From an uncultured Bdellovibrio sp. (lineage in GTDB: Bacteria > Bdellovibrionota > Bdellovibrionia > Bdellovibrionales > Bdellovibrionaceae), in contig CAWVRN010000007.1 of NCBI GenBank assembly GCA_963932905.1, positions 1-64,000 of the forward strand: a DNA stretch of 64,000 nt, read 5' to 3'. Positions within the stretch are counted from its first letter, which is position 1, and every line of letters starts with the position of its first letter. The notes beneath the pieces are model-generated. The model was given only the letters and a program-made list of their open reading frames with translations. It had not been told where the DNA came from and searched no databases. Positions 1-12,471 of the stretch are shown here, piece after piece. The position numbers and the translations under genes were made by a program.

Positions 1-52
1 TAAATGAGCCTTAAACAAATACTATTCCAAATGCAAAGTAAGGGGCCAGTTC

Positions 53-697
53 TTACTTTTTTAACTCAAACAAAACGACATCCCCGATTTGATTTTCCAC
101 CGAAATATTAAATCCCGCATCGCCAATCCATTTCTTTAATTTAGATGTCGTGATCGTTTGTGTTTGATAACCTTCTTCAATCCATTGACGGATTTTCTTC
201 TGCCTCCATGGACTCTGAGGCAACAACAATGCAGATCCACGTACTTTACCGTCTGCCGATAAAATGCGATGAATTTCTTTTAATGCTAAGGGAACATCTG
301 GAAATGAATTCAAACCACCAAAACACGATACGACTTTGAATTGCCCGTTCGAAAAAGGCATCTTACCAACATCCCCCAAAACAAATTGGCATTTTTCTGA
401 TTTCAGATTTCTCCTGGCCTTGTTAAGCATATCCGGCGAGATGTCCAAACAAATCAACGATTCCACATTCACTGTCTTTGCAGGTGAAAGGGCAGCGGCG
501 GTCAAACTGCCGTCGCCAGTTGCGATATCTAGAATGATACTTTTCTCAGTCACTAGATTTTTGAAAAACTGTATGTGTTTAAAAATATTTCCGCGCCAAA
601 TAATGTAATAAGCCAGCAATGCCAATAACGGATAAAACCGAGCATACAGTGAATAACGTTCTTTTGTTTTTTGATTCAGTATTTCATTCGAACTCAA
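53..697 (-). CDS. Class I SAM-dependent methyltransferase (Methyltransf_11/UbiE-like)
   Basis: Motif I ILDIATGDG, acidic residue in CLDISPDML, GDVGKMPF and ALKEIHRIL. Start overlaps the upstream gene stop by 4 bp. Confidence 0.9.
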   Translation of the reverse strand: MSSNEILNQKTKERYSLYARFYPLLALLAYYIIWRGNIFKHIQFFKNLVTEKSIILDIATGDGSLTAAALSPAKTVNVESLICLDISPDMLNKARRNLKSEKCQFVLGDVGKMPFSNGQFKVVSCFGGLNSFPDVPLALKEIHRILSADGKVRGSALLLPQSPWRQKKIRQWIEEGYQTQTITTSKLKKWIGDAGFNISVENQIGDVVLFELKK

Positions 698-3297
698 AGT
701 ATTCCTCGATTCAGAGTAAATCCACGTTGTTTTGCCAGCTGACGAACTAATTGAACTCGCTCGACGCTTAAATCACCCAATGAAAACGAGCTTTCGAAAT
801 TTGACAGACCAAGAACGATTGTCTCTGCTAAACAAGCAAAACAGTCACCACTAAGTAGCGGTAACCACGAATGATCAATCTTCTGATTGTTGGGCAATCT
901 GGCTAAGCCAGCAGAAGCATACACATAATCTTTAGAACTACGAACGGCGCGCGATACATTTGACGGTACAGAAATATCCACTATCAAACAGCCTCTCTTC
1001 AAGTGTTCGGTTTGCAATAACTCTTGAGTTGAATTTGTACCAAGAACTATTATGTCACACTTCTTAAGATCACTAAAATCCGCTGTTGGGTGCAATTTAC
1101 ATTTATCAATTCGGCTGGACAATAGCAAATCATCCACTGCCGCTTGAAAGCGCGGGCTAGTATCAAATGCTTCTTTATAAACCAAAGTTAGATTCGAACC
1201 ATGAGCCGCTAATATTTGCGTAACCGCTCGTCCGATATTTCCACCAAAACCAACGATGCCAATATTTAAATTTTCTAACCGCAACTGCCGAGTCTTCACA
1301 AATGTTTCAATAGCCTCGATAGCGAAACCGGCGGTTAGACTGTTCCCCGTAGTGATGGCAAGGCCCTTTGAATCCAGCATCGTACCATTTTTAGTAACTA
1401 TACTTGTAAACTGCCCCAACCCTAAATAGTCGTTGCTATCGGTTTTAAGTTCATCCACAAATTCTTGAATCGTATCCACCATAATCGGCATCGGTCGCCT
1501 AATATCCGATTCAAAAAAATCAGACACCACTGTAAGGCCATACAAATTCAAGCGAACTTTCTGACCGTCAGCCGATTCGATGATTTGCTGGTGATAACGA
1601 AATGGTTTACTGAATTCGGCATACGAGGTAAAAAACTTTTTCAGTCGATCGATTTTCACATCACGCAGACTCGGATCTAACCGCTGGGCATGATCCCAAT
1701 TAATTATATGCCCAAGGAAGGCGACATCCTTGATTTCAGGCGGTTTGCTTAACAATGGTTTTTGCAGCAATGGAGGACGGTTGGGAATGATTTCGTCTTT
1801 TGAAAAAATATGTGAAAATAAATTTCCCAAACTGTACGTTTCCAAGGTTTCAAGTAGCTCTTCAAACGCTAGTTTTAATTGCTTAACAGCATCGGCAGAA
1901 ATATGTGCAGGTGGTTCGATGCGTAGGGTTTCTGGCGAACTTAATGTAACACCCACTCGAATTTGATGCCGGTTTAACAAATAACTCGTTAATAAATAAG
2001 ACGCATGCCCATTTATTGCCAGAGAATATAATAACGTGGGAACATGATCATTTTCCAAAAAGTTGAACTCAACACCTAGAAAAAATCCTTTACCACGGAT
2101 ATCTTTAATCCATTTTGGATATTTCTTAGATAAATTCTGAAAAAACATTTTTATATCGGCTTCGAATTCGTCCGCGCGTTTTTCTAAATCCAGTTTGTTA
2201 GACTCAAGGTATTGCAAAGTAACAATGGCCAGTCGAGACGAATAATCATCTTCGGCAAAGGTGGACGAATGAATTACACCCAGTTCGCGGACATAGGATT
2301 GGCTACGGCAAACCATCGCTGATATTTTTGCTAAACCACCACCTAAACTTTTTCCTAGAAGAATCATATCCGGCTGTAGCCCGAGGTCTGCGGATACCAA
2401 TAACCGCCCCGTACGATACAATCCTGATTGAATTTCATCGGCAATTGTAGGGATCTGTACCTGAGCCGCAAATCGAAATGCCTTTGATAGTTTTTCTAAA
2501 GGAATAGGACGAATTCCACCCTCGCCTTGTATCGGTTCAAAAATAAATCCAATGAACGGCGAAAATAAGAATTCCTTATCTTTAAATTCAATCGTCTTAC
2601 TGTTTTTTCTCAGCGAGGCTAGCGTGTAATCCCAGTCTGCTTCCGGATCTAAAAAAACGGTTTTAAATAACAACGACGAATACATTTTTTTATAGTAATC
2701 GCTACTTGAAGACAAAACGGCCGACGCTGTCTTTCCATGATAACTACGAGTTAAAGAAACAAGCACTGGAACTGTCGCATCAATTTCATTTATTAAAGCT
2801 TGATAGACCTGCTGTTGTTCTTCATCAGTGTAGCTAGATTGCACGAGTGACAAAAGATTCCTCTTCAGGCTATCTTTTTTATGCTGCCAAATCAGCATCG
2901 CATTTTTCAATGCTATTTCGGTTGCTTCGGTTCCCGTGCTAGCAAACGTCGAAATAAACGTATCGGACGTTCCCAGTTCCGTCGAAACCTGTGTGTGAAT
3001 CAATTGTGCTAATTGCGCGGATTCTGATCGCAGCGAAGCCTGCGCTTGAATCACCCTTTTACTCTTAAAGAACTGGTCAACTTCATCTAACAAAAACTTT
3101 GGGTTGTGGCCCAAGATAGCGGAACCATAGCCACCTAGAAAATCGAAAACAGTTTTTGACTTCCCAGACGACAAATAGGTCATCTGATCGCCCTCAGCGG
3201 CCTGAAAACTTTTGTCCAATCGCAAAATACGGATCAGCTGACCTAATTGAGGTTTTACATAGTTTTGGTAGTATTCGGTCAGATTTTCAGACATCAC
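694..3297 (-). CDS. Class III PLP aminotransferase fused to a C-terminal acyl-ACP/thioester reductase (TamH-like fatty-amine synthase)
   Basis: N-terminal half has DFLGGYG..LGHN, FEPIQGEGG, ADEIQSGLYRTG and LGKSLGGG (PLP Lys). C-terminal half has LGQFTSIV, TTGNSLT, Rossmann GIVGFGGNIG, VDISVP and FACLAE (catalytic-Cys motif of acyl-ACP reductases). Confidence 0.85.
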   Translation of the reverse strand: MMSENLTEYYQNYVKPQLGQLIRILRLDKSFQAAEGDQMTYLSSGKSKTVFDFLGGYGSAILGHNPKFLLDEVDQFFKSKRVIQAQASLRSESAQLAQLIHTQVSTELGTSDTFISTFASTGTEATEIALKNAMLIWQHKKDSLKRNLLSLVQSSYTDEEQQQVYQALINEIDATVPVLVSLTRSYHGKTASAVLSSSSDYYKKMYSSLLFKTVFLDPEADWDYTLASLRKNSKTIEFKDKEFLFSPFIGFIFEPIQGEGGIRPIPLEKLSKAFRFAAQVQIPTIADEIQSGLYRTGRLLVSADLGLQPDMILLGKSLGGGLAKISAMVCRSQSYVRELGVIHSSTFAEDDYSSRLAIVTLQYLESNKLDLEKRADEFEADIKMFFQNLSKKYPKWIKDIRGKGFFLGVEFNFLENDHVPTLLYSLAINGHASYLLTSYLLNRHQIRVGVTLSSPETLRIEPPAHISADAVKQLKLAFEELLETLETYSLGNLFSHIFSKDEIIPNRPPLLQKPLLSKPPEIKDVAFLGHIINWDHAQRLDPSLRDVKIDRLKKFFTSYAEFSKPFRYHQQIIESADGQKVRLNLYGLTVVSDFFESDIRRPMPIMVDTIQEFVDELKTDSNDYLGLGQFTSIVTKNGTMLDSKGLAITTGNSLTAGFAIEAIETFVKTRQLRLENLNIGIVGFGGNIGRAVTQILAAHGSNLTLVYKEAFDTSPRFQAAVDDLLLSSRIDKCKLHPTADFSDLKKCDIIVLGTNSTQELLQTEHLKRGCLIVDISVPSNVSRAVRSSKDYVYASAGLARLPNNQKIDHSWLPLLSGDCFACLAETIVLGLSNFESSFSLGDLSVERVQLVRQLAKQRGFTLNRGIL

Positions 3298-5722
3298 TTA
3301 AAATTAAGACACGTCCAGAGCTTCCATCAAGCTCTATCTGCATTCCCGTTTTTAATTTTTCAGTTGCATCGGGTATATTGAGCACCGCAGGAATGGAATA
3401 TTCACGTGCAATTAGGGCTGCATGTGATAGCAGTCCACCCGTTTCGGTGATTACACCGGCTGTTAAACCAAATAAAGGCGTCCAACCTGGATCTGTGTAT
3501 GGCACCACCATGATTTCACCCTTCAGTAAGGATGAAGAATCCTGAATCGATTTTAAAACTCGAACTTTGCCTTGAACTTTACCCGGGGAACAAGCTAAAC
3601 CCGATAAAGATTTATCATTTGAAATGTCCAGCAGACTTACCGACTTTCCAGCTAGCCCGACTTCGTTAGGGTTTTTAAACCGTTCAAATCCTCGAGCATA
3701 TCGTTTAGTTTCTTCGGCTTTGGCGCGAAGACGTCCCCGTTTTTCAGGCTTTTCAATAAATTCAAATATATCTTCTATCGATAGATAAAAGAAAACATCG
3801 TCGACCTGATATCTATGATTTAAAAATAACAACCATTGCCGAATGAAAAAATACATTCGCGTCGATCGATCGCGCACTTCTTCGCGTAACCACAAAAATT
3901 TCTTCAGACGCGCCAACCGATTTTCAAAAGTCGATTTTGACATTATTCTGGCAAGGGCATTACCGTCAAAATAGTTTTCTATTTTATCGAGGCTCGAGTT
4001 TTTATTTGGCTTTTTAGCTATGTCCACAGGATTTGCCAAAGTCGATTTTAATGTTCCATAAAAAAACGATTTGTCTTCTGCCCATCTGGGAACACGTAAA
4101 TCTAATTCTTTTGTACTATGATGATAATACTTTTCAAAAAACAGATTAATAGATTTCGCCAGTTCCGGCCGCAGTGCTGTGATTTGCGCATGCTTTACAT
4201 CCATTCCCAAATGGACGTTATCCAAAATTTTTAGAACCTGAGCCATAACCTGTGGATCTTTTTGAATTGCGGCGGCAATGTCTTGCAGAGAGTTCAGCGG
4301 GCTTAGCACCGATAGATTATCCATACTTTTAATAAGTTCAGTATAGTGGATGCCTTCGACTTTCTTTTGTATTGCCGTTAAGGTTTCGATGAAAAACATT
4401 TTTGCGTTAGAAGCATTGTAGATCGTAGTAAAGTAATCGCATTCTAATTTAAAATGTTCCTCGTAAAGTTCTTTCGATTTATGTAATAAATCAGTTTCAG
4501 ACAAAGTCGACCAAGTCACCGATTGCCATTTTTTTTCGATAGAAGAAAAGGTATGAATCCAGTTTTCCGCAATGGCTTCTTGTTTTTTGAATCCTGAGGA
4601 AATTTTCAATAATACCGGGATGGCCTTGATAATTTTTCCTAGTCCCCAACCCGATTCACGTCCGCGCCCCTCATAGACTTTCGGTATCGATAGATCCTGA
4701 TCAAATGTATCTTCTCGGAATCCCGGAAGTTGCAACTGAATCTCTTTTACAAGCTCAACATTCCAATAGGGTTTTGCATATAGAACTCGATACCACTTCA
4801 ATTTTTCTTTAGGAAAAGAATTTAACAAGCCAAGATAGCGAAAGTAGACTTCCATGGAAGAACTGAAAACGTTTCCATATAGTGACCACATCACAGGTGA
4901 TACCACTGCCGAAGAAACGCCGCCATCACGAAAATCTGCTGTCGTCCAAACAGAATCAAATCCTGTGTAGTTAAAGAATGTAATCGGACGCGATTGCAGA
5001 AAGTAAATAGTTCCTTTCTTGACCGTGAATTCAATATCCTGTGGTGATTGAAAATAGGCTTGCACCATTTTCATTTTTTGAATCAGATCACCTAAAAAAA
5101 TATCACGCGCAATAAAGTCACCGAAAACTTTCTGTTCTTTTCGTTCATTCAGAATCTGAAAACTGTCATCCGTAACTTCAATTTCAAAAAAATCAGGATT
5201 CACTTGCCCTGATACCAGTTTTTCACCGCTGCCATGAACAAGTTCAACTATCATTTGATTGTGATGGCCATTTTGAGGATTCATTGTAAATGCGACGCCA
5301 GAAAAATCACCGACAACGTATTCTTGAATGATCACGGACATATCTAGACTCAATGGATCTATATTTTTCGTTTGGCAATAGGCTGTGACCCGTTCAGTAT
5401 CAACTGCGTCCCAACATTTCAACACAGACTCGACGATATCTTTTTTCCCAGATACATCTAGGTAGGTAGAAAATAACCCGGCAAAAGATGCTGAAGCTGA
5501 GTCTTCTTTATTTCCTGAAGATCGAACCGCATATGTTTTCCCAGGATCAATCGCAATTTCTTTATCAATCCATTCAGATATAAGGTCACCACGATTAGGT
5601 TTGTTTTTGTGCTTACGAAAAAGCTCAGCACCCACTACCGAAAACGCAGGCACAATGAAACCACCGGAAGAGAGTTTAATTAATGATTCAGCTTTATTCC
5701 CAACTTCTGCTTTGCCTGACAT
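3287..5722 (-). CDS. PEP-utilising/PPDK-like phosphotransferase-condensing enzyme (PigC/RedH/TamQ/rifampin phosphotransferase architecture)
   Basis: ATP-grasp motifs GNKA, AVRSSG.KED..SASFAG, QDIEF and LQSRPIT; central helical domain; C-terminal phospho-His domain GGLLSHAALIAREY. Start placed at MSGKAE (5722), after an AAGGA-like SD. Confidence 0.85.
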   Translation of the reverse strand: MSGKAEVGNKAESLIKLSSGGFIVPAFSVVGAELFRKHKNKPNRGDLISEWIDKEIAIDPGKTYAVRSSGNKEDSASASFAGLFSTYLDVSGKKDIVESVLKCWDAVDTERVTAYCQTKNIDPLSLDMSVIIQEYVVGDFSGVAFTMNPQNGHHNQMIVELVHGSGEKLVSGQVNPDFFEIEVTDDSFQILNERKEQKVFGDFIARDIFLGDLIQKMKMVQAYFQSPQDIEFTVKKGTIYFLQSRPITFFNYTGFDSVWTTADFRDGGVSSAVVSPVMWSLYGNVFSSSMEVYFRYLGLLNSFPKEKLKWYRVLYAKPYWNVELVKEIQLQLPGFREDTFDQDLSIPKVYEGRGRESGWGLGKIIKAIPVLLKISSGFKKQEAIAENWIHTFSSIEKKWQSVTWSTLSETDLLHKSKELYEEHFKLECDYFTTIYNASNAKMFFIETLTAIQKKVEGIHYTELIKSMDNLSVLSPLNSLQDIAAAIQKDPQVMAQVLKILDNVHLGMDVKHAQITALRPELAKSINLFFEKYYHHSTKELDLRVPRWAEDKSFFYGTLKSTLANPVDIAKKPNKNSSLDKIENYFDGNALARIMSKSTFENRLARLKKFLWLREEVRDRSTRMYFFIRQWLLFLNHRYQVDDVFFYLSIEDIFEFIEKPEKRGRLRAKAEETKRYARGFERFKNPNEVGLAGKSVSLLDISNDKSLSGLACSPGKVQGKVRVLKSIQDSSSLLKGEIMVVPYTDPGWTPLFGLTAGVITETGGLLSHAALIAREYSIPAVLNIPDATEKLKTGMQIELDGSSGRVLILSDV

Positions 5723-5866
5723 ACCATCAATCCTTTCATGGTTGCTTTCGACTGTCATCAGTTTAGACAATCCAATCATTTTTACCAATAGTTCACAAAA
5801 ATGACCTAAATGGTCACCTCTTGGTGTATGAAGGCATCGGGTTTTTCTATATTAGGTGGGGTCTCT

Positions 5867-7084
5867 ATGTTTTCTAAGTTCTTTATATTTTTATCGGCAT
5901 CATTGTTTTTAAGCAGCATGTCTTATGCTTCGTATTTTCGAGCGATTGTTTCCTCGGAACAGACAATTGATTTAGAAAAACGAACACACGTTATTGTAGC
6001 TAGCCGCGGTAATGATCTGGGATTGCTTCCTCACCTATCCGCTGTCTCTAAAGCGAATAAAATTGCCGAACGTTTCCCAGACGATCAAGTGATCGTTTAT
6101 TTACCTCAAGATGGCTTCCTTGGAAAAGTTGAAATGAAGAAAATGGGACTTTCTAAGTTTGAACTGAATTCAGAATTGCTTAACCCAAAAACATTTGTCG
6201 CTGAACTTACTAAATTCACGAAAATTGCATCGTTTAGTTCTTTTGGTCATGGCGCCATCATAGAAGGTATCTTTTTAGACGCGGTTGGCGACAAAGACGT
6301 TCGTTGGTATCCATATGATAAAGAAACAAAAAAATTAGTTAGCCATTTCACGGATGATGCTTACGCTGTATTGAATGGATGCAATAATGGTCATCACCTA
6401 GCTGCCTATCTTTCAAAAATGTGGGGCATCCCCGTGGCCGGCGCGTTAACGGGAACTCACTTTGAAACCTTACACAAAGACGGAAGTTTTTATTTCGTAG
6501 ATCCCGCCAGCTCAAAAAATCTAAGTAGCACAAGTAAAGATATGCTTGCCTCAGAAAAGAATTGTTTCGGTGCATGTTATCGTATGAAACCGGATAATCA
6601 CGCCTACAATGGCCACTACGGTAAATATCAAAAAGGTTTAAATTTTTACAAATTCTTTTGCCCAAATATTTCCGAGGACAAATGTCTTGCCGCTATGGCG
6701 ACTTCATTGACTGTTCAAGTTTCAAACAAAAACTTAGCTAAATCATTAGATCGTGAAGAGTATGCTGCTTTAGCTAGAGAATGGCTTTGCCCATCGGGCA
6801 ACTATGGTTCAAAAATTCAATCGCAGTGTATGGCACAATTAGAAACTGTTTCAGCACAATTAGCTCTACAGGAACCATTGGAAAATTTGAAATTCTATAC
6901 GCCTTTCCGTGGGGCCAGTTTGAAATGCAGTTTTGCCACCTGCTATCAACCAGTGGCATGTCACAAAACGTATTGGACTATTGATCAATGCGCAAAAACA
7001 ATCAGCGCACCGCAAGCATCCGACACCTTTGTTCAAGAATATATCAGTTATTTAAAAGGTTACGATTTAATCAGAAGAATGTAG
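5867..7084 (+). CDS. Secreted Cys-rich protein, possible caspase-fold (His-Gly/Gly-Cys dyad) cysteine peptidase
   Basis: Signal peptide from ATG 5867 (MFSKFFIFLSASLFLSSMSYA) after AGGTGGGG; FGHG ... LNGCNNG ... WGIPVAGA pattern. Confidence 0.55.
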   Translation: MFSKFFIFLSASLFLSSMSYASYFRAIVSSEQTIDLEKRTHVIVASRGNDLGLLPHLSAVSKANKIAERFPDDQVIVYLPQDGFLGKVEMKKMGLSKFELNSELLNPKTFVAELTKFTKIASFSSFGHGAIIEGIFLDAVGDKDVRWYPYDKETKKLVSHFTDDAYAVLNGCNNGHHLAAYLSKMWGIPVAGALTGTHFETLHKDGSFYFVDPASSKNLSSTSKDMLASEKNCFGACYRMKPDNHAYNGHYGKYQKGLNFYKFFCPNISEDKCLAAMATSLTVQVSNKNLAKSLDREEYAALAREWLCPSGNYGSKIQSQCMAQLETVSAQLALQEPLENLKFYTPFRGASLKCSFATCYQPVACHKTYWTIDQCAKTISAPQASDTFVQEYISYLKGYDLIRRM

Positions 7085-10680: not shown

Positions 10681-12399
10681 TTAGAGTGTCTGCAAGAAGT
10701 GAATCAGATCTTTTTTGTCAGCCGCCGATAAAATCTCTTGGCCGTCTACTATGAAAATACTTTCATCATGTCCCATGTTACCCATACCCTTTTTGCGAGT
10801 ATCAAATTTCAGCTCGGGATCTTTTTTCCATGCAACTGGAGCTACGCTAGGCGCGGGATAACCATTGCAATCGAAATCAAAATCTTTTGTCTTGTCCACA
10901 GCTGGTCCTTGATAAAACTCTTTCTTCCTTAAACGAGCGGGCGTTAAAAGCTCGCAAAGATTAGGAATTGAATTGTTGTGAAAATAAGGCCAACGCGCCC
11001 AAATACCGACAAGTGGTGGTGGGACGTAACCTTTCTGTGCTTGTATTACTATCCCATTGTTTTGCGAAATTTGTAATTGATTTAATTTCTCTAAGGACTT
11101 CATGCCAAGGTAACGATAGGGGTCAGTACCGACATCTTTCACCTGAGTTTGCTTTTTATATACGACCTTGTACGTTTTGATTTGCTCAGCAATGGGTGCC
11201 GATGAAAACTCATTCAAACTCCAATTTTTATGATACGTTCCGTGGCAGCTAGCACAGTTGTCTTTGAATAGTTCCTCGCCCCGTTGAGCACTGCGAATAT
11301 TGATTTGGTTTTCACTAAAGAAATCGGTGATACGTGGGGCCTCGACTGAAAATACGGCCGAAGTTAAATCACGAATAACATGTTCATTCTTATCGATCCA
11401 ACTGTTCAGCTCTACCAAATCAGTACCGCGCCCAATTTCATTCCACAGTATGTTTGTCAGGATCGGATTTCCACTGATAACACTACCATCACTTAGCCAG
11501 CGATTTTTATATTTCAAATTCCACCACACCGCCGGCTTACTGTCCGCAGGAATGGCGTCTAGGTAATCTGCACGTGGATGCTTTTCATAGTATGAATTTT
11601 TCGTCGACCATGCATCTGGATTTCGTTTTTGCAAACTCAGCGCGACTTGTGCCAACGATGTATCTAAACCCAAAGCCAGCGGCGTCACAGCGCCTACAGA
11701 TTTCAAATTTGATTGAACTTGTTTAAACAATTTCATTTCGGCCGGCGTGCTACCCGTATAAACTTGGAACATTGGTGCCGGTGCGACTTTGATAGCTTGA
11801 GTGGCTCTTAAGAAAAATTCGTTTGCACGAGGAAAACGATTAGTTAAACCAAAAACTGTTTTACCAAAAAGTGAACTTGAATGGCAGACTGTGCAGCTAA
11901 GTGTGAAGCCTGTAGCCCCGCCGCGAGCCATCATCCCCATACCAAATCGATGATTGATGATTTTATCTTCGGGAACGTAGACTTTGTAAATTCCGGTTTC
12001 GTTTTGATCAGGATAAGGATTTAACCCTAACCACTTCATCAAATCATCAAACGATTTAAAAATATTTATTTTTTGAAACAGATCTTGAAGAATGCGAATC
12101 AACGGATTTCTGAAATCGTTATCCAAGATTTTTTTAATTGGCCTTAACGGTGGCAAAATCCCAGTGACTTCAATTGGGTAGTACTGCGTATGCCACTGCC
12201 CTTGATTTTTCGAATTTTGAAACTCAGACTCGTCCAGCTGATACGGATTTGGTCTGGGTTCTTCCAGGCGATATTGAGCGGCCCACTGCAAATCCTGCGA
12301 TTTGGATTCCACTTGGGCGTTGGCAGTTATAGTTAAGGCAAGCATAAAGCACGCCCACGCAAGACGACCTTGTCTGAAAAACTGAAATTCCATTTTCAT
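10681..12399 (-). CDS. Exported dihaem c protein, rubber oxygenase RoxA-like
   Basis: Signal peptide ending ANA-Q; two CxxCH motifs (CTVCH, CASCH); DVGTDP, GYVPPPLVGIWA.WPYFHNNSIPNL and GMGNMGH. Confidence 0.75.
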   Translation of the reverse strand: MKMEFQFFRQGRLAWACFMLALTITANAQVESKSQDLQWAAQYRLEEPRPNPYQLDESEFQNSKNQGQWHTQYYPIEVTGILPPLRPIKKILDNDFRNPLIRILQDLFQKINIFKSFDDLMKWLGLNPYPDQNETGIYKVYVPEDKIINHRFGMGMMARGGATGFTLSCTVCHSSSLFGKTVFGLTNRFPRANEFFLRATQAIKVAPAPMFQVYTGSTPAEMKLFKQVQSNLKSVGAVTPLALGLDTSLAQVALSLQKRNPDAWSTKNSYYEKHPRADYLDAIPADSKPAVWWNLKYKNRWLSDGSVISGNPILTNILWNEIGRGTDLVELNSWIDKNEHVIRDLTSAVFSVEAPRITDFFSENQINIRSAQRGEELFKDNCASCHGTYHKNWSLNEFSSAPIAEQIKTYKVVYKKQTQVKDVGTDPYRYLGMKSLEKLNQLQISQNNGIVIQAQKGYVPPPLVGIWARWPYFHNNSIPNLCELLTPARLRKKEFYQGPAVDKTKDFDFDCNGYPAPSVAPVAWKKDPELKFDTRKKGMGNMGHDESIFIVDGQEILSAADKKDLIHFLQTL

Positions 12400-12471
12400 A
12401 TAGAAAAATTGCACCGCACGCCCAGGGCATTTGTCTAGCTTATTTGCTTTACTGGACCAAGAACTGGTCCC

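What the first reader, a model, noticed from the sequence alone, without database searches (positions are those of the whole stretch)
53..5722. Compact TamQ/PigC-like + TamH-like + methyltransferase operon without pyrrole genes: candidate new fatty-amine pathway
Seen: three overlapping minus-strand genes encode an ATP-grasp/phospho-His enzyme, an aminotransferase-reductase fusion and a SAM methyltransferase. The operon starts here because the next gene is divergent. Established: in tambjamine synthesis TamH (N-terminal omega-transaminase, C-terminal thioester reductase) converts acyl-ACP to a long-chain amine, and TamQ (PigC/RedH family, same layout as rifampin phosphotransferase) condenses it with a bipyrrole aldehyde. 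Inference: no proline adenylation, PCP or PigH/J-type genes are visible, so this module may attach a fatty amine to another acceptor, or phosphorylate and methylate it. That would give an unusual amine-containing lipid or toxin.
Basis: partly seen in the sequence, partly recalled or inferred. Interest (0 to 1): 0.78.

Follow-up and report, generated by a model that had tools for sequence, protein, structure and literature searches.

The report
Fatty-amine lipid pathway core, Bdellovibrionota
These three genes open a roughly 21-gene lipid cluster in a Bdellovibrio-type bacterium; one likely turns fatty acids into fatty amines, and its recurring partner likely phosphorylates the amine (or a derivative) to start an undescribed amine-containing membrane lipid rather than a tambjamine pigment.

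Summary
Observation confirmed; interpretation partly right. The trio is real, but not stand-alone. The window starts at a contig end formed by a small insertion element. Synteny in four relatives shows the cluster continuing on contig C17 with 18 more lipid-type genes (join inferred). No bipyrrole genes were found in the 98.6%-complete genome. The 866-aa protein is a TamH-type transaminase-reductase with all catalytic residues. The 811-aa enzyme is neither a TamQ/PigC nor an RPH orthologue; it belongs to its own RPH-fold clade. That clade occurs in 24 of 25 fusion-bearing genomes among 401 searched. In metagenome loci it sits beside a CarS-like or other nucleotidyltransferase (never both in one locus); a minimal four-gene cassette adds a CDP-alcohol phosphotransferase. 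Best reading (0.55): acyl-ACP to alkylamine, then phosphorylation, CDP activation and head-group transfer, giving an amine-containing phospholipid. Main rival: amide ligation (0.22). The methyltransferase is a genus-level accessory. This scan had already noted the C17 half and a relative's fusion. The dedicated kinase clade and minimal cassette were not in the notes I retrieved.

The parts
3287..5722 (-). RPH-fold small-molecule dikinase (ATP-grasp, central substrate domain, C-terminal His swivel), 811 aa; member of a clade that travels with the amine synthase
   Evidence: Pfam/NCBIfam; AF2 pLDDT 91.8; best fold RPH 5hv1, Foldseek E 1.6e-33, VIA Z 28.5 with rmsd 11.6 over 717 residues; keeps K10, R67, T86, E231, Q243, R245, R613, E614, R617, H767; trees
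694..3294 (-). TamH-type fusion: class III omega-transaminase (about 1-490) + acyl-ACP-reductase-like thioester reductase (about 520-866), 866 aa
   Evidence: PLP Lys315, G682xxG685xxG688 and Cys821 kept
53..697 (-). Class I SAM methyltransferase, 214 aa; small family (41 clusters), accessory tailoring gene, substrate unknown
1..55 (-). Left end of a 565-bp IS-like element (full copy C2:289743-290307, 14-bp terminal inverted repeat). It causes the contig break; the right end opens contig C17, where the other 18 genes of the cluster lie

Best explanation
The trio heads a larger lipid gene cluster in which the fusion protein likely converts acyl-ACP to a long-chain primary amine, and the adjacent RPH-fold enzyme likely phosphorylates that amine or a hydroxylated derivative, feeding a predicted nucleotide-activation and head-group route to an amine-containing membrane phospholipid. 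Step 1 (inferred from the characterised TamH): Cys821 takes the acyl chain, NAD(P)H releases the aldehyde, and the PLP domain (Lys315) transaminates it. Step 2 (inferred): ATP phosphorylates His767, which swivels to the central domain (Arg613/Glu614) and hands the phosphate to the lipid. I put N-phosphorylation (TalE-type phosphoramidate) slightly ahead of O-phosphorylation, because minimal cassettes show no hydroxylase or acyltransferase among the neighbours I labelled. Step 3 (inferred from gene context): a nucleotidyltransferase (NTP_transf_5 here, CarS-like in other lineages) activates the lipid phosphate for head-group transfer. In this genome an Spt-like enzyme, further kinases, PSD, DUF3419, P450, a fatty-acid hydroxylase and the methyltransferase would build or tailor the product, and an MMPL-like protein would export it. 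No step has been shown experimentally.
For: Cluster continues on C17 with lipid enzymes. Co-occurrence: among the same 401 phylum genomes the fusion is in 25 and the kinase clade in 28, with 24 shared; 12 of those 24 were not seeds of the clade profile. The clade is a 15-row group with SH-aLRT 100, apart from TamQ/PigC and RPH; AU tests reject query+TamQ/PigC (p 2.9e-6) and query+RPH (p 9e-6). In 72 de-duplicated metagenome loci found by the kinase's central domain alone: AT/AAR in 36 (32 within 1.2 kb), CarS-like in 22, NTP_transf_5 in 7 and never with CarS, CDP-alcohol phosphotransferase in 13. L234, L235 and L261 hold fusion + kinase + CarS-like + divergent CDP-alcohol phosphotransferase, with no second PEP-utilizer in 18-21 kb, so the kinase is the likely source of the lipid phosphate. 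Amine and amide N-phosphorylation by this enzyme class is shown for TalE and Cj1418 (PMC6482885); Cj1415-1418 make a CDP-phosphoramidate from Gln, ATP and CTP (PMC11800397).
Against: No product is known and no assay was run. G000 itself has no CarS-like or u27-like gene. NTP_transf_5 is an uncharacterised family and, in the loci seen, lies next to the second PEP-utilizer, not this one. L235 also carries a DAG-kinase-like gene that could supply the phosphate. The whole clade as sister of TamQ/PigC is not rejected (p 0.10), so condensing chemistry stays open. 22 of 45 metagenome loci of 10 kb or more show no AT/AAR (some have it just beyond the flank, as in G434 and G091; others unchecked). G037 has the fusion without the clade, and fusions in Pseudomonas, Haematobacter, Metabacillus and Photobacterium sit in other contexts. 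No ACP or acyl-AMP ligase lies in the cluster, and TamH needed its own TamA-ACP (PMC9594044). The C7-C17 join is inferred, not bridged.
Confidence: 0.55

Rival explanations
1. Amide ligase: the RPH-fold enzyme activates a small acid (for example glycerate) as an acyl phosphate and joins it to the alkylamine. The CarS-like and CDP-alcohol enzymes (or PLD) then attach phosphatidyl, giving an N-glyceroyl-alkylamine-type lipid like those of Thermus and Deinococcus.
For: Such lipids exist (PMC3398001 passages). The minimal cassette fits this equally in gene count. Deinococcota pair an AAR-like domain with a PlsY-like domain (45 of 61 genomes have the AAR-like match; 2 of 2 proteins scanned hit G3P_acyltransf), a parallel acyl-phosphate logic. 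PigC/HapC show phosphorylate-then-condense chemistry on this fold (PMC13534948).
Against: Neither the fusion nor the clade was found in 101 Deinococcota genomes. A dedicated CarS-like gene would be redundant if ordinary CDP-DAG were the donor (inference). Carboxylate activation was not described for this family in the papers I read.
Confidence: 0.22
2. TamQ/PigC-type condensation: the enzyme joins the fatty amine to a carbonyl made by the cluster's alpha-oxoamine synthase, giving a two-tailed enamine or imine (a ceramide substitute or a monopyrrole tambjamine analogue).
For: An Spt-like AOS is in 15 of 29 genome-level clusters. G000 lacks a tandem-GNAT of the kind found in the other cluster type. 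Clade-as-sister of TamQ/PigC is not rejected.
Against: The same clade occurs in clusters with no AOS (AOS 8 of 72 loci, never with CarS or UbiA). The AOS has no ACP domain and groups apart from TamD/PigH. The clade's conserved central-domain residues differ from TamQ/PigC.
Confidence: 0.12
3. The two genes act on separate substrates in one lipid island: the dikinase phosphorylates a sphingoid base or other lipid alcohol, and the amine has another use.
For: G037 has the fusion alone; some loci have the kinase with CarS but no fusion nearby (L227, L231, L239, L243).
Against: 24 of 25 co-occurrence and frequent direct adjacency across very different surrounding clusters.
Confidence: 0.08
4. Known pathway: a split tambjamine or prodiginine cluster, or a stand-alone rifamycin kinase.
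For: Shared folds with TamH, TamQ and RPH.
Against: No PCP, TamD-ACP, TamJ or TamR match in G000, while each hits at least one of the two control pig clusters; other tam queries hit only housekeeping paralogues. No amino-acid adenylation domain over cut-off (188 of 317 bits); one true KS; PigA best 240 of 500 bits; RPH model 242 of 999 bits.
Confidence: 0.03

Closest known systems
TamH (tambjamine YP1, Pseudoalteromonas tunicata; PMC9594044) and PigE
   Same: N-terminal omega-transaminase + C-terminal AAR-like thioester reductase; PLP Lys, GxxGxxG and catalytic Cys conserved; 28% identity over the full length to a TamH. PigE has the same two domains in reverse order.
   Different: Own clade, not sister to TamH; no TamA-type ligase-ACP or bipyrrole genes; sits among phospholipid enzymes.
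TamQ / PigC / RedH / HapC condensing enzymes
   Same: Three-domain layout with C-terminal His swivel; ATP-site residues, the RE pair and the following Arg are kept (PMC13534948).
   Different: About 25% identity; 255-259 bits against 826-997 for TamQ; monophyly with the query rejected; no MBC substrate available.
Rifampin phosphotransferase RPH (PDB 5hv1, 5fbs; PMC4844700)
   Same: Best structural match over all three domains; K22/R117/T136/R666/E667/K670/H825 equivalents present (K670 as Arg).
   Different: About 22-24% identity, far below the family cut-off; embedded in biosynthetic clusters.
TalE (phosphoramidon) and Cj1418 with Cj1415-1417 (Campylobacter phosphoramidate)
   Same: PEP-synthase-type kinases that form N-P bonds; the Campylobacter route goes on to a CDP-phosphoramidate. 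This cluster likewise has a nucleotidyltransferase and P-loop kinases.
   Different: Their substrates are a dipeptide and glutamine, not a lipid. I did not compare sequences with them, so this is an analogy of chemistry only.
Archaetidyl/phosphatidyl-serine head-group route (CarS or CdsA, PssA, PSD)
   Same: CarS-like, CDP-alcohol phosphotransferase and PSD genes flank the kinase clade in many loci.
   Different: The lipid phosphate would come from an alkylamine branch; G000 has PSD and NTP_transf_5 but no CarS-like gene.
N-glyceroyl alkylamine phosphoglycolipids of Thermus/Deinococcus (PMC3398001)
   Same: Membrane lipids built on a fatty amine; AAR-like domain present in that phylum.
   Different: Deinococcota have a PlsY-AAR fusion instead; neither this fusion nor this kinase clade was found in 101 genomes.

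Membership tests
TamH-type transaminase-thioester reductase | N-terminal class III transaminase fused to C-terminal AAR-like domain | tested here: met
TamH-type transaminase-thioester reductase | PLP lysine, GxxGxxG, catalytic cysteine (K340, G707-713, C887 in PtTamH) | tested here: met
   K315, G682/685/688, C821
TamH-type transaminase-thioester reductase | Converts acyl-ACP to primary amine | not testable with these tools
   needs in vitro assay
Tambjamine / prodiginine cluster | MBC genes (prolyl-AMP ligase, PCP, prolyl-PCP dehydrogenase, KS, ACP-AOS, oxidase) | tested here: not met
   with pig clusters as positive control; genome 98.6% complete, 58 contigs
Tambjamine / prodiginine cluster | TamQ/PigC orthologue | tested here: not met
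   (AU p 2.9e-6); sister relation of the whole clade not rejected
RPH-type small-molecule dikinase (fold class) | ATP-grasp, helical substrate domain, C-terminal His swivel, catalytic residues | tested here: met
Rifamycin phosphotransferase (Rph) | NCBIfam NF041857 cut-off and grouping with RPH | tested here: not met
   242 of 999 bits; AU p 9e-6
N-P bond-forming kinases (TalE, Cj1418) | Phosphorylates an amine or amide nitrogen | not testable with these tools
   no reference sequence fetched; needs 31P NMR
Bacterial ceramide pathway (Spt, bCerS, CerR) | Serine palmitoyltransferase | tested here: inconclusive
   C17 AOS: best PDB hit SPT (232 bits, KBL 225), GTFSK motif, but 324 of 640 bits and an own clade with weak deep support
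Bacterial ceramide pathway (Spt, bCerS, CerR) | Tandem-GNAT ceramide synthase | tested here: inconclusive
   a profile of the type-B GNAT finds one protein each in a Novosphingobium and an Emticicia genome but none in G000; that these are bCerS is recalled, not shown
Deinococcota alkylamine-lipid route | Same amine synthase and partner as in that phylum | tested here: not met

The most novel reading that the evidence does not exclude
A four-gene cassette (fatty-amine synthase, dedicated dikinase, CarS-like CTP transferase, CDP-alcohol phosphotransferase), spread over many bacterial lineages, makes membrane lipids whose chain is joined to the head group by a phosphorus-nitrogen bond (N-alkyl phosphoramidate lipids). 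This acid-labile lipid class would be missed by standard lipid work-up.
Probability: 0.27. Interest if true: 0.9.

Novelty: new variant of a known kind. Interest (0 to 1): 0.66.

Why it matters
TamH is known from a pigment pathway. Here the same enzyme type anchors a widespread family of lipid clusters with a dedicated, uncharacterised kinase clade. The minimal cassette gives a small testable unit for how bacteria build fatty amines into membrane lipids, and possibly a new P-N lipid linkage. It also offers fatty-amine biocatalysts of other chain specificity, and it warns against annotating RPH-fold genes as rifamycin resistance or PigC.

Tried and rejected
Pyrrole genes elsewhere in the genome: not found. 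The FAAL-ACP-ACAD locus on C39 is a fatty-acyl system, not PigI/G/A. Idea that this is the Deinococcus/Thermus alkylamine route: rejected (0 of 101 fusions; best clade score 72 bits). A recalled role of Cj1419/1420 as phosphoramidate methyltransferases was dropped: PMC11800397 says they have no assigned function. Single-sequence AF2 failed (pLDDT 35.7) and was redone with 108 rows. In the fusion tree row L152 is a wrong-strand ORF that I picked by mistake; ignore it and the drawn root. Both large trees were quick searches without bootstrap. Promoter scan: 12 sites against 18.6 expected, no signal. No RNA holder listed. Public contigs did not bridge the IS break. Plasmid collection: one fusion (Photobacterium, KS-type context), no match for the dikinase at 1e-30. 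The genome-contig scan covered only 2 of 64 parts. Atlas gave only hypothetical clusters for the 550-aa secreted protein. ORF-based labelling missed genes in GC-rich loci, so counts come from tblastn. Literature searches listed no paper describing this cluster or cassette (listings and abstract starts only); Bale et al. 2025 (PMID 40339506) is not held and may bear on novelty.
Full report
Observation. P0001 (811 aa) has an ATP-grasp and a C-terminal His-swivel domain. P0002 (866 aa) has a class III aminotransferase and a Rossmann domain. P0003 (214 aa) is a class I methyltransferase. Named homologues place the host among Bdellovibrionaceae-type bacteria (81-85% identity); the phylum name is inferred from these.

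The unit is larger than three genes. Window base 1 is the start of contig C7. Bases 1-55 match the left end of a 565-bp IS-like element (whole copy C2:289743-290307); that end occurs at 9 contig termini, and the right end opens C17, among others. In G006, G003, G009 and G008 the methyltransferase lies tail to tail with a phosphatidylserine decarboxylase, and in G000 that gene is the first on C17, abutting the element's right end. C17:251-20584 carries 18 genes in the order seen in G006 and G009: PSD, DUF3419, MMPL-like, a 550-aa secreted protein, a PEP-utilizer without ATP-grasp, a 163-aa ORF, P450, SDR, ThiL-like, DAG-kinase-like, TMK-like, Spt-like AOS, epimerase, HAD, second ThiL-like, second ATP-grasp-less PEP-utilizer, NTP_transf_5 and a fatty-acid hydroxylase. 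The join rests on synteny and element orientation; no contig bridged it.

Not a tambjamine cluster. I fetched a tam cluster (G784) and two pig clusters (G708, G520) as references. In G000 the tam PCP, TamD-ACP part, TamJ and TamR queries have no match, whereas each hits at least one pig control; the other queries reach only housekeeping paralogues. Family searches agree: no amino-acid adenylation domain over cut-off, one true KS, PigA 240 of 500 bits, three ACPs with none in the cluster.

P0002. It aligns end to end with the tam-cluster TamH (28%) and keeps Lys315, GxxGxxG and Cys821, the equivalents of K340, G707-713 and C887 named in PMC9594044 (passages). That paper shows TamH making C12 amine from an ACP-bound acyl chain but not from acyl-CoA. 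The fusion was found in 11 of 61 relatives (frameshifted in G008), 25 of 401 phylum genomes and, in other contexts, in several other phyla.

P0001. An alignment-based model (pLDDT 91.8) matches RPH best. The residues that PMC4844700 (passages) shows essential are kept. It scores 242-259 bits on the RPH, PigC and RedH models, against 826-997 for the real TamQ on PigC/RedH and 1500 for a real RPH. In a 49-row quick tree it lies in a 15-row clade (SH-aLRT 100) apart from both. AU tests on 20 rows reject query+TamQ/PigC and query+RPH, but not the whole clade as sister to TamQ/PigC (p 0.10).

Co-occurrence. Those loci were gathered through the fusion, so I searched again with the clade's central domain alone. 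In the same 401 genomes it hit 28, including 24 of the 25 with the fusion; 12 of the 24 were not seeds. The four without a fusion hit are three fragmented assemblies (hits on 3-5 kb contigs) and one weak hit; G037 has the fusion alone. Kin are not independent. In metagenomes 289 stretches encoded a relative; the best 80 were kept, 72 after de-duplication, some being the same organisms as G000, G008, G040 and G434. AT/AAR lies in 36 of 72 (32 within 1.2 kb; 23 of the 45 loci of 10 kb or more), CarS-like in 22, NTP_transf_5 in 7 (never with CarS), CDP-alcohol phosphotransferase in 13, UbiA-like in 15, AOS in 8 (never with UbiA or CarS), PSD in 12, this methyltransferase in 3. Of 29 genome-level clusters, 15 are AOS-type and 10 CarS/UbiA-type, with no overlap in the DNA fetched. 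L234, L235 and L261 reduce to fusion, kinase, CarS-like and a divergent CDP-alcohol phosphotransferase (E 2.4e-5, DGxxAR kept), plus sulfotransferase and phosphodiesterase genes.

P0003. Orthologues occur in exactly the 8 genus members that have the pair, and not in G040, G058 or G037; also in G394 and L281. The family is small (41 clusters) and has no characterised close relative in the PDB. It is accessory; N- or O-methylation of the product is a guess.

Mechanism. The sequence shows the domains, residues and gene neighbourhoods; everything else is inferred. The recurring pair plus a nucleotidyltransferase is most simply read as amine synthesis, phosphorylation, nucleotide activation and head-group transfer (0.55). 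N-phosphorylation has precedent in TalE and Cj1418 (PMC6482885, parts 1-2 of 3 read), and the Campylobacter route continues to a CDP-phosphoramidate (PMC11800397, passages). Against it: G000 has no CarS-like gene, and its NTP_transf_5 sits beside another PEP-utilizer. The amide-ligase rival (0.22) would give a glyceroyl-alkylamine lipid as in Thermus (PMC3398001, passages). Deinococcota, however, lack both core genes in 101 genomes and carry a PlsY-AAR fusion instead. PigC-type condensation with an AOS product (0.12) cannot explain the AOS-free clusters.

Literature and earlier notes. Also seen, as passages: PMC6667630, PMC13534948, PMC13274423, PMC12167813, bioRxiv 2025.08.11.669332 (116), PMC6148460 (B. 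stolpii has an SPT and a sphingophosphonolipid). No supplements were read. Nine searches listed no description of this cluster or cassette; Bale et al. 2025 was seen only as a reference title. Earlier notes of this scan cover the C17 half, an 881-aa fusion of a relative and the Deinococcota PlsY-AAR protein; look-ups by P0001's sequence and by the cassette's words returned nothing.

Verdict. Known enzyme types in an undescribed, widespread arrangement, with a small testable core and an unknown product: new variant of a known kind, interest 0.66.

Noticed in passing
window 1-55; G000 C2:289743-290307: 565-bp IS-like element with 14-bp terminal inverted repeats and two short overlapping ORFs (85 and 83 aa, the first Cys-rich); its ends sit at about 17 contig termini, and its terminal TAA supplies the stop codons of both flanking genes at this site.
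   Followed up: partly
window 5810-7084 (+): 424-aa secreted-looking protein with no Pfam or NCBIfam match, inserted between argS and the trio in G000 and G008 only; a homologue lies in L034.
   Followed up: no
window 10681-12414 (-): 577-aa di-heme cytochrome c protein with a RoxA-like motif, conserved next to a MutS-V-domain protein and argS in the genus.
   Followed up: no
L031-L034 (G028, G004, G007, G017): A sister cluster in genomes lacking the fusion: a 720-aa protein with an AAR-like C-terminus and unknown N-terminus, epimerase, DAG kinase, PEP-utilizer (PRK06241.2-2), UbiA-like, hydrolase-AMP ligase, DUF3419 and an ABC exporter. G004 and G007, the two genus members without the trio, carry this one.
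   Followed up: partly
L193-L195: Gammaproteobacterial clusters with an HMG-CoA-reductase/kinase fusion, UbiA-like, PEP-utilizer, tandem GNAT and AMP ligase (CarS-like in two, MMPL in two): a thioester reductase of another family in the place of AAR.
   Followed up: partly
L333-L348 (Deinococcota): PlsY-like + AAR-like fusion of about 560 aa; AAR-like matches in 45 of 61 genomes. Candidate for their alkylamine lipids; already noted several times by this scan.
   Followed up: partly
L027:6779-9369 (G008): The fusion gene is frameshifted into 268- and 586-aa pieces in this assembly, and in the matching metagenome contig L218.
   Followed up: no
G000 C39:7074-15824 (L167): FAAL-ACP-ACAD-luciferase-like monooxygenase-acyltransferase-P450 cassette; a possible but unlinked source of acyl-ACP.
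   Followed up: partly
L175:9922-24808 (Photobacterium sp. DA100): TamH-type fusion inside an ACP/KS/SDR/MMPL cluster without a PEP-utilizer, another orphan context.
   Followed up: no
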